Origin: Octopus vulgaris
Taxonomy: Eukaryota
NCBI GenBank assembly: GCA_951406725.2
Contig: OX597816.1
Coordinates: forward strand, 49,538,001 to 49,602,000
DNA: 64,000 nt
Reading direction: 5' to 3'
The notes below the pieces were generated by a model that worked only from the letters and a program-made list of their open reading frames with translations, made no database searches and was not told the origin of the DNA. A program made the position numbers and the translations under genes. The number at the start of each line of letters is the position of its first letter. Position 1 is the first letter of the stretch. Below are positions 19,900 through 27,800 of the stretch, in pieces.

Positions 19900-20035
19900 A
19901 ACGCCAACGCTTCTTTGAAGAAAACAAAAAGTTCAGCTCCAACCCCAAAAAGTTCTACCAAGAACTGGGCAAAAATAAAATAGAAGTCACTGCAGCACCA
20001 ACGGCAGAAGAATTGGAATAATTCTGGAGAGAGAT

Positions 20036-22150
20036 ATGGTCGGCGAACGAACCACCAAAAAAAGGAGTATCAAAATTACAAACTCGGCATCTGAACAACT
20101 TTGGACCCCCATAACAACTGAAGAGGTCACCCAGGCACTGCAAAGACTAAGCAACTGGAAGGCACCTGGGCATGACAAGATCCCCAACTTCTGGTTGAAA
20201 TATCTAACAGGAATGCACAAAAAGCTGGCTGAAAACTTTAACAACGTACTAGCAGAGCCAGAGACAATGCCTGAATGGCTCACGAAGGGGAAAACCATCT
20301 TAATTCCCAAATCAAATGAAACAGAAAAACCAGAAAACTACAGACCAATAACCTGCCTCCCTACTATGTTCAAGGCATTTACTGCAGTGATATCACAAAG
20401 GCTGAACAAGCACCTGGACGAAAACAAACTGTTCCCAGAAGAGCAGAAAGGATGCCGCAAAGGCTCATATGGCTGTAAAGATCAACTAATGATTAATAAA
20501 GCCATAACTGAAGACAGCCACAGAAAGAAGAAAGGCCTCAGTATGGCCTGGATTGACTACAAAAAGGCGTTTGATAGCATCCCCCACACATGGATCCTCG
20601 AAACACTAGCCATTAACAAAGTAGCACCAACAATCATAAAATTCATAGAGCACTCTATGAATAAATGGCAAACAGTCCTACACCTCCAAACAAAAGAGGG
20701 ACTCATGAAAACCAAAGACATCCCCATTAGAAGAGGAATATTCCAGGGAGACACGCTCTCTCCACTCCTTTTCTGCTTGGCACTGTCACCTCTATCTGAT
20801 ATGCTAAATAGAACTGGATGCGGATATAAATGTTACGGCAAAACGATCAGCCACCTTTTATATATGGATGACCTAAAACTATACGCTGCAAATGACAAAC
20901 AGCTGGAAACACTATTAAAGACAGTTCATGGATTTACCAAAGAAATAGATATGAAATTTGGATTAGAAAAATGCGCCAAAGTAACCATGAAAAGAGGAAA
21001 ACTAGTTAAGAGTAACAACATCACACTAGATAAAACCAATGAAATAAAAGAATTAGACCAAAGCCAAACTTACAAATACTTAGGAATCCATGAACTAGAT
21101 AAGACACAACACACACAAATGAAAGAGAAAATAAAAAAAGAATATTATAGACGAGTTAGATCAATACTAAACACAGAGCTCAATGCTAAAAACAAGATAA
21201 TAGGTATCAACACTTTAGCTGTCTCAGTTATAAGTTACAGCTACAATATCCTTAACTGGACACGAAATGAACTGACCAAAATAGATAGGAAAACAAGAAA
21301 AATAATGACAGGATCTAGGATGCATCACCCAAAATCTGACATAGAAAGACTATATATACAACGTATGGAAGGTGGTAGAGGCCTTATACAACTGGAAAAC
21401 TACTATAAAATAACCACCATAGGACTGCAAAAATATCTACTTCAGAAGGAAGGAAAACTGATCCAGATAGCGGCAAAACACGAGCAAAACAAAAAACTGT
21501 TCTCAGTATTTAAGGAAGCTGACAAATACAAACAAGAAATCATACCACCTAATAAACATGAAGAAGAAGAAGAAGATGAAGAAACAACAAAAGCTATAAA
21601 ACAAATGAAATCCAAACTAAAAACAGAACAGCAACGAACCATGATAAAACGATGGCAAGAAAAGCCCCTTCATGGTAAATACTGCACTAAACTAAACGCA
21701 AAAGAAATAGACAAAGAAAAATCCCAGCAATGGTTGAGAAGCTCAGGACTCAAAGCAGAAACAGAGGGATTTTTAATTGCAGCACAAGACCAAAGCCTCC
21801 CCACCAGAAATTACCAAAAACATGTAATGAAAAGAAATATTACAAGTAACTGCAGAATATGTGGAGATGGACAAGAAACAATAAATCATATTATCTCTAG
21901 CTGCCCAGTCCTGGCTAAGAAGGAATATATTCACAGACATGACAGAGTTGGAACCTACATACATTGGAAGCTATGCCAACATTATGGAATAACAACAGAA
22001 AAAAGATGGTATAGGCACACACCAGAAAAGGTCACAGAAAACGAGAAAGCAACCATACTCTGGGATATGCCGATACACACAGATAGAGAAATTAAGGCCA
22101 ACAGACCAGATATAGTTGTCAGAGATCATGAAGAAAAAAATGCTTTTTAA
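20036..22150 (+). CDS. Non-LTR retrotransposon polyprotein: reverse transcriptase, zinc knuckle and first half of a restriction-like endonuclease (N-terminally truncated)
   Basis: Motifs KAPGHD, NYRPITCL, EEQKGCR, WIDYKKAFDS, RGIFQGDTLSPLLF, HLLYMDDLKL, YKYLG, GGRGL; CRICGDGQETINHIISSC (CCHC), RHD, RPDIVV. Confidence 0.92.
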   Translation: MVGERTTKKRSIKITNSASEQLWTPITTEEVTQALQRLSNWKAPGHDKIPNFWLKYLTGMHKKLAENFNNVLAEPETMPEWLTKGKTILIPKSNETEKPENYRPITCLPTMFKAFTAVISQRLNKHLDENKLFPEEQKGCRKGSYGCKDQLMINKAITEDSHRKKKGLSMAWIDYKKAFDSIPHTWILETLAINKVAPTIIKFIEHSMNKWQTVLHLQTKEGLMKTKDIPIRRGIFQGDTLSPLLFCLALSPLSDMLNRTGCGYKCYGKTISHLLYMDDLKLYAANDKQLETLLKTVHGFTKEIDMKFGLEKCAKVTMKRGKLVKSNNITLDKTNEIKELDQSQTYKYLGIHELDKTQHTQMKEKIKKEYYRRVRSILNTELNAKNKIIGINTLAVSVISYSYNILNWTRNELTKIDRKTRKIMTGSRMHHPKSDIERLYIQRMEGGRGLIQLENYYKITTIGLQKYLLQKEGKLIQIAAKHEQNKKLFSVFKEADKYKQEIIPPNKHEEEEEDEETTKAIKQMKSKLKTEQQRTMIKRWQEKPLHGKYCTKLNAKEIDKEKSQQWLRSSGLKAETEGFLIAAQDQSLPTRNYQKHVMKRNITSNCRICGDGQETINHIISSCPVLAKKEYIHRHDRVGTYIHWKLCQHYGITTEKRWYRHTPEKVTENEKATILWDMPIHTDREIKANRPDIVVRDHEEKNAF

Positions 22151-22419
22151 TTGATGTATCAATACCGGCAGATGACAACGTGTCTCTAAAAGAAATGGAG
22201 AAACTCTCAAAATACAAAGACCTGGAAATAGAGGTAACTAGAATGTGGAATCTGAAAACAGAAACAATTCCTATCATAGTAGGTGCATTAGGCATGATAA
22301 AAAAATATTCAGACAAATACATAACAAAAACACCAGGACTTACAAACACATATAACATACAGAAAATTGCACTACTAGGCACTGCCCACATCCTACGCAG
22401 AACACTTTCCATACAATAA
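22141..22419 (+). CDS. C-terminal half of the restriction-like endonuclease, in the -1 frame relative to the main ORF
   Basis: CFLIDVSIP..KEMEKLSKYKDL..IPIIVGALG..IQKIALLGTAHILRRTL supplies the second catalytic Asp and the K..KY motif. One extra A at 22134-22140 would fuse it to the main ORF. Confidence 0.85.
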   Translation, partial: CFLIDVSIPADDNVSLKEMEKLSKYKDLEIEVTRMWNLKTETIPIIVGALGMIKKYSDKYITKTPGLTNTYNIQKIALLGTAHILRRTLSIQ

Positions 22420-22519
22420 CCATCAGAGCATCACAACAAATCACAGCACATACCCAAGGCACACAGAGCTGCGCTCGGTAGTGAAGTGAAAGCACGCTAT
22501 AAAAATAAAAATAAAACTA

Positions 22520-22790: not shown

Positions 22791-22803
22791 ATTATTATTA
22801 TTA

Positions 22804-22842
<39 letters not shown>

Positions 22843-22849
22843 ATGCTAT

Positions 22850-23340
22850 TACATACTAGTTTAGACATCTGCGATGTTTTCTTGTGGTCTGGTGACAAAT
22901 ATTCTCAAATCTCCAGCAATCTATGAAAGATTACTGCAGAATATAGGATAACACTTTTCAGAATATCGACAACTTTTATACCAATTTAAATATCCTTCAG
23001 GCACTTAAATAACATTTTGGGTCTTTTGCCAAGTGCACCAATTGCTATAGAAACAGTTGCCATATTTGTCTTCTATAATCTTTTCGTCTATTTTGATATT
23101 TCTCAGTTTTATTAACTTATTTGTTATCCACTTTGTTATGATATGGTATTACAAAATCTGTGATCGTACACTTTTTGTTTGACTTTTACAAACGTATCTG
23201 GTTTTCTTGTTTCACTAATGTGATCAGTCTCTATGGAGAAATACCATAATGTCCTGCAATTAGTCGCTGCTACTGACCCTGGTTTGTATTCAAACTGCTG
23301 TCCTGAAACTGCTATTACAATATATGTAATTCCAGCCAAA
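22850..23340 (-). pseudogene. Old R4/Dong-like LINE 3' fragment (endonuclease region)
   Basis: Minus-strand FEYKPGSVA..RTLWYFSIETDHISETRKPD and VSIAIGALG..ILKSVILYSA..RLLEI align with the young element's ILWDMPIHTDREIKANRPD and IPIIVGALG. Its 3' end runs toward (TTA)n at 22790-22842. Confidence 0.75.
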
Positions 23341-23382: not shown

Positions 23383-23388
<6 letters not shown>

Positions 23389-23425
<37 letters not shown>

Positions 23426-23512
23426 TAGATAGATAGATATCTACATATTTATATATATATATATCCATCTATATATCTAACTATACATATATATGTATAT
23501 ATATATATATAT

Positions 23513-23574
<62 letters not shown>

Positions 23575-23641
23575 TAGATAGATAGATATACACATTTACA
23601 TATGTATATATATAGATAGATAGATAGATATACACATTTAC

Positions 23642-23698
<57 letters not shown>
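23389..23698. repeat. Compound (TA)n/(TAGA)n microsatellite
   Basis: Directly visible. Confidence 0.95.
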
Positions 23699-23881
23699 CT
23701 TATAATAAAGGGTTTTTGCAACAAGTTGCTTAAACCACATACCGAAAATATTAGAAATAGCAGTCAAAGGGCTACTATTACTATTACTACAAAAATAAGT
23801 CTCCACAAACAACAGCATTTGTAACTCATATATGGTAAAAGAAGAAAGAAAAGCGACGAAAACACACAGTCTACTGGATTA

Positions 23882-23939
23882 ATTATGGACGATCGTTTCT
23901 GGATTAGAATCGTAAAGTTCATTTCCTTATCAACATAAT
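23882..23939 (-). ncRNA. Second copy of the minimal hammerhead ribozyme (inverted pLTR)
   Basis: Exact reverse complement of 24456-24513 as read by eye. Confidence 0.7.
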
Positions 23940-24455
23940 ATTTCCCATAAATCTTGAAAGGCTAGGAAAAACTTACCTCCTATAAAGACCATCTTCTTTT
24001 ACCATATATGAGTTACAAATGCTATTGTTTGTGGAGACTTTTTTTGTAGTAATAGTAATAGAAGCTCTTTGACTGCTATTTCTAATATTTTCGGTATGTG
24101 GTTTAAGCAACTTGTTGCAAAAAGCCGTTTATTATAATTATATAATTTTTACCGAATATGGACCTTTCCATACCGAAATACTACTAGGTGAAATTTATTG
24201 ATTTCATTAAATTAATTATATTTCACCCTTTATCTGTATTGAATTATTTTAATCCCCTACAATATAACTGCGAAACTTCGTTTCGGCAGCACTGTTTTTG
24301 TGACTCACGTGGTGGGATTTGGGGGGGGGGGGGGAGATACGAATTCGCTTGTCTATATAAATGTGGATATGCTAGTGGTCTTATATCTTTCGATGTCGCT
24401 TGCTCGAATATATAGGAGGTAAGTTTTTCCTAGCATTTCTAGATTTATGGGAAAT

Positions 24456-24513
24456 ATTATGTTGATAAGGAAATGAACTTTACGATTCTAATCCAGAAAC
24501 GATCGTCCATAAT
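24456..24513 (+). ncRNA. Minimal type I hammerhead ribozyme, U3-A8 variant
   Basis: attatg | TTGATAA | gga..tcc a | GAAA c gatc GTC | cataat: 6-bp stem I, core boxes, palindromic ACGATCGT in place of stem III, GUC cleavage triplet. Confidence 0.7.
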
Positions 24514-24785
24514 TAATCCAGTAGACTGTGTGTTTTCCTCGTTTTCCTTTCTTCTTTTACCATATATGAGTTACAAATGCTGTTGTTTGTGGAGACTTAT
24601 TTTTGTAGTAAGAGTAATAGTAGCCCTTTGACTACTATTTCTAAAATTTCGGTATGTGGCTTAAGCAACTTGTTGCAAAAAACCCTTTATTATAATTATA
24701 TAATTTTTACCGAATATGGTCCTTTCCATACCGAAATACTACTCGGTGTAATTTATTGATTTTATTAAATTAATTATATTTCACC

Positions 24786-24844
<59 letters not shown>

Positions 24845-27800
24845 CAGGATGAGTGAAAAGTAAGTAAACATTAAAAATTGTTAATAAAATCCATACTCCT
24901 CTGACAAATTTAGTGTTATTTCGAAAGAGAAAACCAAATTATTCCGATTATGGCAGCGAAAACTTTTTATTTAATACAATGCAAATTACGATGAAGACAT
25001 CCCACCATCTTGGGATATAAGGAACAGCAATCAGCCTAATATTCAGCAATCGTTTCCCGATAGATCTAGCATAAATTAAGGTTACTGTTTACCAAATAGG
25101 AGGAAACATTCAAAAACTCATATTCAACTAGAAAACTTATGAAAATAAACGCCAGAGCAAGAAAATCCAGAACGAAAGCGCAGTGACCAATACACACTGT
25201 TGATGAAGAAAACGTCTATATCAACTGAAATAAGGCAGAATTCATATCTATTTGTCAGCACAACAAACCCCAAAACATAAAAGACATAGGAAACGTTTTT
25301 CAGACACCTGAACAGATATGCTCTGCAGTTATTCATTTAACAGAAACAGATTTAAATAATGAATTTCAACATCATGTAAAAGGACAAAAAATTATGCCTT
25401 CACTAACGGTGGAACATCAAGCCTTAGACAATTTAATCCAAAAGGTCTATCGAATATTGCGATCGCTTGTTTTTCTTCCTTAGCACCAATGAAGTGGATG
25501 AATCCCTGATAAGGAACAAATAGAAAATTGCCACACCAGACAGAAGCATCAAACACAAGATCTGTACATTTACATCCGTTCCAAATATACAGTTAAACAA
25601 CGTACTAGTGTCAGATCACATTACTACCAACGAGAGATTTTACAACTTAGATCTCTCCACAACAATGATACAATAGTTAATACACAAGCAAATAAAGTAT
25701 CTTGGCATTTTTTCCTAATTTAATCATAATTTCAATATAATTTAGAAGAATTGAGCGTCCTTCTGAGCAACCTATATTCAAGTGTGCGTGTGTGTGTCTG
25801 CGTTTGTGTGTGAAAGAGAGATTGAGATAGCCTGTTTGTGTGTGTAATGTGTGCGTAAGTGTATGTATGCGTGTACACACGCATACACACAAACACACGC
25901 ACACACACATTTATATATGTATATCACTTAATGAAAATGCACTTAATAAGTAGAGATCTATATCGTTGGTCTAAAGATATAGATCTATTTCGGAGCAAAC
26001 CAGTGCTTTTTATGTTTGACAATCTCTACATATGTTATTATGAACACCTAATACAACTTATATTGCTTACAATCAATTAAACTCTTTTAAAAACTGATTT
26101 GCTATTCAAAATGCAAATGTTATGAACATCATTGAATAATTCAAGATCGGTGTATTTGGGGAACTTTTCAGTTTTTCTAAACCATAATATAAAGCTTTAT
26201 TTTCTATAATAATGTGAAATATTCAATATGAGTTGATATTAAATATTTTATTAACAGTGTTCTTTATGGAATCATTTATTCGACGAATTATTAATAGCAA
26301 GAAATTCAAACCTCTTTAATAACATAGCCTAATGTCTATCATAGTCTATACTTTTAATGCCGGGTTAGTTTTGGTAAAAGGGTTAGGGAAATATATTATC
26401 TTGAAGTTGTATTAGTTGAAAAATATGCTGAGTGGGAGTCATCGCGAGTGAATATCACTTGATAGCACGTACCATACTTTTGTTATTCATTTAAGGTGTG
26501 TAGTTTGTCGGAGTAGATGCAAAAACCACCTCGGTTCCTCGAAGTCTCAATAAATTTAACAAGCTATGGCTGATAGAGGGAAACAGAGCGATACCAGCAC
26601 TTACTGAAGCAATGTTAAATTAAATGGCTTTACCAAAGTCAAAACACTCTACAGGCTTCAAAAGTTGAACTCATAACTTTAAGATTATGATACATTGTCT
26701 TCTAGGATCTAGGACACACATATTCACTTTGTATTATTTATATAGCAAATAATTTCATCTGAGACAGTGTGTTGAATCTTAAATACTTTCATTGTTGTGG
26801 AGTCACGGAAGCTATTTAAGATATAACATAGGATACTGAAACAATTCTCTTCCCCCTGTAAGAATATCTAGATGGAAGTTGATAGTTATAAACAGGGCCA
26901 CACGTTGGTATACCAGGCAGCTGCACATTGCTATAGATATGAACTATAAATTCTTCACATCAGTATTGATTTCTTACAATGTTACAATGCCACTTAAGGA
27001 TGAAAAAGTTGGGATAAGTTTAAGCTCGTAATAGATAACAGGCTCAGATAAGAGGATTTCAAGAAAAGCAAGTTATATCTAGTGTCTAGAGAGGATCAAA
27101 TATTATATTCGTATCTTAAAACAGACATATTTCAAACACAACACATATTTTCTTGCTTCTGTTGTTGTTGCTAACAGTTTTTATGTGGTGGGCGGTTGAT
27201 AGCGAAAGTAAAAGGAAATTTCATAAATGGGTAACAGAAATATGACGCCATCTCGGCTCATCGGGAGATTACCCCGTATTTTATAGCGATCAGTGGTCCG
27301 TTACATTTCTATGGAGAACGTTATACGAGTGATAACAAAAATCATAATCTTTCTGCGAGTTGAGGTTGTGTTTCATGTTCGATTTCGGTTAGTAGATATT
27401 TTTTCAAGAGATATTAAAACAAAAATTAAAGAAAAAAATGAACGGTATACTGAGAACATTTTTTTTTATCCATGAAGTGATTTGCTAATAGATTCCGCTA
27501 ATTACGAAGATCTAGTAATTCTTTTTATTCTAATGGTGCCTAGAATAGATATATTTTTATGCGTCTTTAAAAGTCTTTATGGAAAGTAATATATGCTATA
27601 ATCTTTCTGCCACTTCTAATTACTCTCCATATATTTATAGAATTCACCTGTCATAAGAGATATAAAATACAGATATATGTATGATTAACTATACAACCAA
27701 TTTATGTAGAGTATATTTCGGATATTAATGTTAGCCGTTATCTTATTACACATGGTTTAAGTGCGATAATGTAGCAACACGTGAAAAGAATAGAAAATAA

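What the first reader, a model, noticed from the sequence alone, without database searches (positions are those of the whole stretch)
23700..24790. Penelope-type pLTR element carrying a minimal hammerhead ribozyme with a compensatory U3-A8 core pair
Seen: at 24456-24513 (and inverted at 23882-23939) a 6-bp stem I (attatg/cataat) encloses UUGAUAA..GAAAC-GAUC-GUC. The canonical box is CUGANGA. Here positions 3 and 8 are both changed (C3 to U, G8 to A), in both copies. Known: C3-G8 form a Watson-Crick pair in the active hammerhead fold, and Penelope-like elements encode minimal hammerheads with a palindromic stem III proposed to work as dimers. Inference: the double change is covariation rather than decay, so this is a protein-less, ribozyme-bearing retroelement (retrozyme-like) that standard CUGANGA searches would miss. 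Stem II is weak and an extra A precedes GAAA.
Basis: partly seen in the sequence, partly recalled or inferred. Interest (0 to 1): 0.75.

Follow-up and report, generated by a model that had tools for sequence, protein, structure and literature searches.

The report
Non-coding Penelope element with U3-A8 hammerhead
This is one copy of a common 558-base, protein-free jumping element that carries a small RNA motif predicted to cut itself when two copies pair up; the swapped base pair in its core is real but already published, and its relatives suggest it likely arose in two steps.

Summary
Observation confirmed. Window 23693-24790 is a Penelope-type insertion in (TA)n: an inverted partial copy, a direct partial copy and one full 558-nt unit. 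It carries a type I hammerhead motif with U3-A8 on each strand. The unit is a non-coding family with hundreds of copies (60, 134 and 144 pattern hits; controls 0), tandem arrays and two fixed 3' ends; no ORF was linked to it in the loci searched. Stem I, stem II and the stem III palindrome change while keeping their pairing, and two copies fold into the double hammerhead. Sister families have C3-G8, and trees favour C3-G8, then U3·G8, then U3-A8 more than once. An intact two-ORF RT/GIY-YIG element in the same genome also has U3-A8 and the same terminal motif; it is the likely helper. U3-A8 in Penelope hammerheads (2014) and non-autonomous PLE retrozymes are published. Cleavage is untested, and this locus cannot form the dimer in cis. 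New member of a known kind; interest 0.33.

The parts
23693..23984 (-). Inverted, 5'-truncated copy (unit positions 179-470, no tail)
   Evidence: 95.9% to 24411-24702
23882..23939 (-). Hammerhead motif of the inverted copy, identical to 24456-24513
23992..24232 (+). Direct partial copy (unit 318-558), forming the pseudo-LTR ahead of the full unit; lacks the hammerhead
   Evidence: about 93%
24233..24790 (+). One full 558-nt non-coding unit; position 558 is followed by position 1 in tandem arrays elsewhere
   Evidence: 7 copies in tandem at C2:84288185-84291558
24354..24361 (+). TATA-like word; possible internal promoter (inferred; not kept in the youngest subfamily)
   Evidence: alignment
24419..24423 (+). 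5' splice-site-like GTAAG, GT(A/G)AG in 25 of 33 copies picked without regard to the hammerhead; splicing not shown
24456..24513 (+). Type I hammerhead motif: stem I 6 bp, U3 (24462) and A8 (24467), stem II, extra A (24495), GAAA, 8-nt palindrome 24499-24506, predicted cut after C17 (24507)
24635..24659 (+). 3' block shared by the whole clan of short non-coding elements (4,537 exact genome matches, control 0); likely part of the signal the helper protein binds (inferred)
24703..24790 (+). Tail of about 88 nt between the two preferred 3' ends (unit about 470 and about 558); ends in the motif shared with the autonomous element
23386..23699 (.). (TA)n-rich target, left flank; the right flank (TA)n runs from 24791 to about 24845

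Best explanation
The locus is an insertion of a 558-nt non-coding Penelope-like element family, likely copied by the RT/GIY-YIG protein of an autonomous Neptune-type element, and it carries a conserved type I hammerhead motif predicted to cleave only as a dimer. Shown: architecture, copy number, two 3' ends, (TA)n targets, tandem arrays, paired variation in the stems, and U3 fixed with A or G at position 8. Inferred: tandem units are transcribed; two motifs pair through the stem III palindrome and cut after GUC, probably slowly or with protein help; the helper protein starts reverse transcription at one of two internal sites, giving ends with or without the tail. Inferred from trees: the core pair went C3-G8, then U3·G8, then U3-A8, the last step more than once. 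This particular locus is probably inert in cis, because its two motifs are on opposite strands and would pair with each other.
For: Architecture matches the PLE description in PMC8557442. 176 of 211 3' ends fall at two positions and 112 of 211 run into a TA tract. Family BLAST matches stayed within the 558-nt unit in all loci mapped. tblastn with the 784-aa RT hit only separate PLE fragments behind TA tracts or other flanking DNA, none continuous with the unit. Structure: 94.9% of cells paired against 27-42% in slid controls; pair 2.1-1.1 is G-C in 62 and A-U in 12 of 75. 103 of 117 copies carry one of four self-complementary stem III variants. The minimum-energy fold of two copies is the double hammerhead (-18.2 kcal/mol); the monomer hammerhead scores -1.7 against -5.0 for another fold. 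In 33 copies found without using the hammerhead, 0 of 12 core positions against 78 of 308 others show shared changes (p 0.044). Sister families have C3-G8. Trees put U3·G8 copies at the base, and the nearest C3-G8 relative joins among them. Autonomous element: RVT_1 E 3.4e-8, GIY-YIG E 3.7e-4, CX4CxxC linker, own U3-A8 hammerhead (99 of first 100 of 1,904), same terminal motif and target.
Against: No cleavage data. An invariant extra A separates stem II from G12 (32 of 33), and the window's lineage has a C·A mismatch in distal stem II (30 of 75 unpaired at that pair). One third of copies spread with U3·G8, so a Watson-Crick pair was not needed, and A/G is also the commonest neutral change. The core-conservation test is weak: p 0.15-0.19 with 53 copies, and the G8 state sat in an insertion column and was not counted. 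Alignment A1 was chosen with a pattern that requires the core. The 2.1-1.1 change is a single event. The youngest subfamily's commonest palindrome has a central G·G mismatch. A root in the youngest subfamily is not rejected (p-AU 0.076). The autonomous element has no significant similarity to the unit (best E 0.02), so the helper link is circumstantial. In PMC11167929 hammerhead mutants did not affect PLE insertion in vitro, and in the 2026 preprint 8 of 9 retrozyme dimers did not cleave.
Confidence: 0.75

Rival explanations
1. The element is a real non-autonomous PLE, but its hammerhead no longer cuts. C3U and the extra A disabled it, and the region is kept as a protein-binding or splicing element; A/G at position 8 is drift.
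For: U3·G8 in 33 of 100; at least 9 state changes on the tree; extra A before GAAA; a conserved splice-donor-like word upstream and branch-point-like words in and after the motif; hammerhead dispensable for insertion in vitro (PMC11167929).
Against: Positions with no obvious role except catalysis (G5, A6, G12, A13, A14, C17) are kept between subfamilies only 75% identical; the palindrome is re-made several ways; position 8 is a purine in 99 of 100 and the newest lineages are A8; U3-A8 cores are reported active (PMC3088659).
Confidence: 0.3
2. These are 5'-truncated pLTRs of an autonomous PLE whose ORF I did not find, not a separate non-coding family.
For: Most PLE insertions are 5'-truncated; genome searches scored only 40 candidates each and 150 of 6,295 RT candidates.
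Against: Unit position 558 runs directly into position 1 in 27 of 91 ends there, and arrays of about 559-nt units reach 7 copies, leaving no room for an ORF.
Confidence: 0.07
3. A satellite or DNA-level repeat whose hammerhead likeness is chance.
For: Some tandem arrays; no Rfam match.
Against: Dispersed copies on about 30 large contigs, variable 5' truncation, inverted 5' parts, two fixed 3' ends, and sister families with canonical CUGA(U/A)GA cores at the same place.
Confidence: 0.02

Closest known systems
Minimal hammerheads in pLTRs of Penelope-like elements, including the U3-A8 variant of Schistosoma mansoni Cercyon elements (PMC4209133; parts 1-2 of 4 read, plus supplement passages)
   Same: Type I, very short palindromic stem III, dimer model, U3-A8 core, opposite-strand pairs 100-700 bp apart, and a bulged base between 9 and 10.1 in older subfamilies.
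   Different: An extra base between stem II and G12 in this family; interrupted stem II; a U3·G8 lineage; carried by a non-coding unit rather than an ORF-bearing element.
Non-LTR retrozymes of animals (PMC7229834, passages read; bioRxiv 10.64898/2026.07.22.740005, parts 1 and 3 of 5 read)
   Same: Non-coding tandem units with one type I hammerhead each, proposed to be non-autonomous PLE derivatives.
   Different: Unit is 558 nt against about 170-400 nt; the hammerhead is of the minimal PLE type; circular RNA is not shown; most copies are dispersed PLE-style insertions.
Non-autonomous PLEs such as MRC1 of Chlamydomonas (PMC8557442, passages read)
   Same: pLTRs, head-to-tail insertions, microsatellite targets, no ORF.
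   Different: Those generally resemble their autonomous partner at the 3' end; here only a short terminal motif is shared. The tail is about 88 nt against 30-40.
Neptune-clade PLEs (PMC8557442 and PMC12602865, passages read)
   Same: The candidate helper (L121) has RT, CX2-5CxxC linker, C-terminal GIY-YIG, an upstream ORF and (TA)n targets.
   Different: The window element itself has no ORF; the helper's clade was not tested by phylogeny (Nematis shares the linker).

Membership tests
Type I minimal hammerhead (PLE type) | Core CUGANGA/GAAA/NUH, or an accepted 3-8 covariant | tested here: met
   UUGAUAA, GAAA, GUC; U3-A8 accepted in PMC4209133 and PMC3088659
Type I minimal hammerhead (PLE type) | Stems I and II flanking the core, with paired variation | tested here: met
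   94.9% paired; 2.1-1.1 G-C to A-U (one event); one distal stem II pair unpaired in 30 of 75
Type I minimal hammerhead (PLE type) | G10.1-C11.1 pair directly adjoining G12 | tested here: not met
   An extra A lies between C11.1 and G12 in 52 of 53 copies; an extra A or C is also seen in two C3-G8 relatives, L249 and L257. This is listed as a recurring trait, not a descriptor requirement.
Type I minimal hammerhead (PLE type) | Palindromic stem III allowing a double hammerhead | tested here: met
Type I minimal hammerhead (PLE type) | Self-cleavage after H17 | not testable with these tools
   needs an assay
Penelope-like element (non-autonomous) | Partial tandem with pseudo-LTR and inverted 5'-truncated copy | tested here: met
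Penelope-like element (non-autonomous) | Optional tail, giving two 3' ends | tested here: met
   85 ends near 470 and 91 near 558, of 211; tail longer than the published 30-40 bp
Penelope-like element (non-autonomous) | 3' similarity to an autonomous RT/GIY-YIG partner | tested here: inconclusive
   Shared terminal motif only; best BLAST E 0.02
Penelope-like element (non-autonomous) | Retained spliceosomal intron near the pLTR | tested here: inconclusive
   Donor-like word conserved; no intronless copy among fetched loci; acceptor not fixed
Penelope-like element (autonomous) | RT plus GIY-YIG ORF | tested here: not met
Non-LTR retrozyme | At least two consecutive tandem units each with a hammerhead | tested here: met
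   Met by the family, not by this locus, which has one sense motif
Non-LTR retrozyme | Abundant monomer-size circular RNA | not testable with these tools
   Only assembled contigs were available

The most novel reading that the evidence does not exclude
This genome preserves a dated series of one catalytic base pair being swapped through a viable wobble (C3-G8, U3·G8, U3-A8), in an active hammerhead of a new layout with an extra base before G12. The parasite and its unrelated helper reached U3-A8 independently, which would point to a shared, protein-assisted setting that favours this pair.
Probability: 0.25. Interest if true: 0.55.

Novelty: new member of a known kind. Interest (0 to 1): 0.33.

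Why it matters
The headline feature is published, so the finding mostly adds a family. Its value is as test material. The role of hammerheads in PLE transposition is open (PMC8557442, PMC11167929). This clan offers natural C3-G8, U3·G8 and U3-A8 versions, several stem III palindromes, young tandem arrays and an intact candidate helper protein in one genome. Comparing cleavage across them would show whether cutting was needed for spread.

Tried and rejected
Rfam: no match at gathering score over 64 kb; one chance miRNA match at E 0.84. Expression: no RNA holder listed on record. Contigs from four runs guessed to be RNA cover much of the unit but show no splice joint and no common ends, and contigs cannot show ends; no conclusion drawn. 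Four contig sets from three coded organisms listed no other letter at position 3; weak. Linked ORF: the RT fragment beside L013 led to the autonomous family, but it lies about 100 nt past the element's end; fragments in L005, L137 and L161 are not continuous with the unit. No spliced genomic copy among fetched loci. The core-conservation test (p 0.006) was set aside as circular and redone. Labels were mis-parsed and the tree was redone. Counts include about 20 shifted duplicates, so only its variant list is used. The first regex failed. The bacterial promoter scan does not apply. Earlier scan findings: none. Two key papers were not held (Lunse et al. on PLE hammerhead variants; Przybilski and Hammann on 3-8 exchanges), so prior reports of the extra A and of U3·G8 activity could not be checked. 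Searches for hammerhead + C3U + G8A (1 listing, not read) and hammerhead + C3U + wobble (0) did not settle it. Supplement file 1 of PMC4209133 was not searchable.

Full report
Observation. The motif is present as described. Stem I (24456-61 with 24508-13) encloses U3-UGAU-A8-A9, an interrupted stem II, an extra A, GAAA, the palindrome ACGAUCGU and C17 at 24507. An identical copy lies on the minus strand at 23882-23939. The locus is an inverted part (23693-23984), a 7-nt junction, a direct part (23992-24232) and one whole unit (24233-24790), set in (TA)n. The window lies in a 2.8-Gb genome. Rfam does not detect the motif.

The element. A DNA search gave 58 matches from 40 scored of 2,792 candidates. 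In the loci mapped, family matches stay within one 558-nt unit, as truncated, tandem or inverted pieces. Of 211 distinct 3' ends, 85 fall near unit position 470 and 91 near 558; 112 run into a TA tract and 27 into the next unit. Inverted insertions usually show one end of each kind. This fits the PLE layout with a tail (PMC8557442, passages) and the two internal start sites shown for a PLE protein (PMC11167929, parts 1-2 of 4). A subfamily 75% identical to the window unit has 144 exact hits and a 7-copy array with about 559-nt spacing. A 3' block shared with sister families has 4,537 matches, control 0. No ORF continuous with the unit was found by six-frame scan of L001-L090 or by tblastn on the window and loci L001-L100 and L127-L271.

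Positions 3 and 8. An exact 21-mer gave 59 U3-A8, 1 U3·G8 and no C3 of 60. A family-wide pattern gave 134 hits, control 0; of the 100 listed, tallied by eye, 65 were U3-A8, 33 U3·G8, 1 U3-C8, 1 A3-A8 and none C3. The youngest subfamily is A8 in 99 of 100 listed of 144 (U3 fixed by the pattern). So U3-A8 is inherited, not decay, but the two bases are not locked together. Sister families have C3-G8. A tree of 91 rows without the hammerhead columns, rooted on 16 sister rows, puts U3·G8 copies at the base and nests a 56-row clade (100/99) in which 53 are A8. A root between bulged and unbulged copies is rejected (p-AU 0.019), a root in the youngest subfamily is not (0.076), and a single U3-A8 clade is rejected. 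Adding closer relatives, the C3-G8 copy L257 joins among the U3·G8 copies on a long branch, and a divergent U3-A8 copy (L246) joins there too. The likely order is C3-G8, U3·G8, then U3-A8 more than once; this is inference on 206-257 columns.

Is the structure selected? On 75 distinct motifs, 94.9% of cells pair against 27-42% for slid controls; pair 2.1-1.1 is G-C in 62 and A-U in 12. These rows were picked with a core-requiring pattern, and the A-U change is one clade. Stem III varies among GUAC, GUGC, GAUC and GAAUUC, all self-complementary, in 103 of 117 rows; GUAUGC is a fifth. The youngest subfamily's GAGUC form leaves a central mismatch. In 33 copies found with a query lacking the hammerhead, 0 of 12 core and 78 of 308 other positions carry shared changes (p 0.044); with 53 copies p is 0.15-0.19, and G8 was not counted. 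Two motifs co-fold into the double hammerhead at -18.2 kcal/mol, while the monomer prefers another fold. The extra A before G12 is in 52 of 53 copies, and an extra base at that place is in two C3-G8 relatives, so it is likely older than C3U. At this locus a read-through RNA is predicted to pair the sense motif with its antisense twin.

Helper. An RT fragment beside one copy led to a young family with many 784-codon open frames. L121 shows 4.4-kb tandem units with a 446-codon upstream frame and a frame with RVT_1 (E 3.4e-8) and GIY-YIG (E 3.7e-4, just below the curated cut-off), plus a CX4CxxC linker as in Neptune and Nematis elements. Its hammerhead is also U3-A8 (1,904 exact hits; 99 of the first 100 listed), with a normal G10.1-C11.1 pair. 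It ends in nearly the same motif as the unit and inserts in (TA)n, but is not otherwise similar (best E 0.02). It is a plausible helper, not a shown parent.

Mechanism. Tandem units are likely transcribed; two motifs would pair through stem III and cut after GUC, slowly or with protein help as shown for the anole element; the helper would nick (TA)n and copy the RNA from one of two internal sites. Confidence in the element class is high; in actual cleavage, about even to 60%. The main rival is a silent motif kept for binding or splicing.

Comparison. U3-A8 in PLE minimal hammerheads, with opposite-strand pairs 100-700 bp apart, is in PMC4209133. Natural U3-A8 covariation, with earlier in vitro activity, is in PMC3088659 (section 8 and passages). 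Non-coding PLE-derived retrozymes are in PMC7229834 and the 2026 preprint. A search for octopus plus hammerhead ribozyme (my guess of host group from genome size, unverified) listed four papers, none describing such a family by title or abstract start. What I did not find in the texts read is the extra base before G12 and the U3·G8 series, but two papers most likely to cover them were not held.

Verdict. Real, ordinary in kind, with a useful natural series. New member of a known kind; interest 0.33.

Noticed in passing
L121 (G000:C9:55714500-55724400), minus strand: Young autonomous two-ORF Neptune-like PLE in 4.4-kb tandem units with its own U3-A8 hammerhead (about 1,900 exact copies). A pyrimidine tract and CAG end exactly at helix I, like the intron end described for Drosophila virilis Penelope.
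   Followed up: partly
window 19979-22430: Non-LTR retrotransposon: 723-codon frame with RVT_1 (E 6e-33) and zf-RVT, a frameshift, then a 95-codon C-terminal piece, followed by a (TAA)n tract. It looks like an R4/Dong-type element (label recalled, not tested).
   Followed up: partly
window about 22800-23340, minus strand: Decayed 3' fragment that resembles the same kind of element, ending at a (TAA)n tract; no Pfam match.
   Followed up: no
window about 25230-25700: Decayed coding-like stretch with a motif reminiscent of PLE RT N-termini (recalled); no tblastn or Pfam support.
   Followed up: partly
L245, L252-L256, L260, L271: Very young sister family in 594-nt tandem arrays with near-identical copies and a canonical C3-G8 hammerhead with a long stem II; best material for activity tests.
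   Followed up: partly
G000:C10:27050250-27051595: Array of the youngest subfamily with about 265-nt spacing, suggesting a shortened unit.
   Followed up: no
window 24514-24518 and 24570: The word after stem I varies as TT(A/G)A(T/C), always fitting a branch-point consensus (recalled), and is followed by a pyrimidine tract and AG; a possible intron enclosing the hammerhead.
   Followed up: partly
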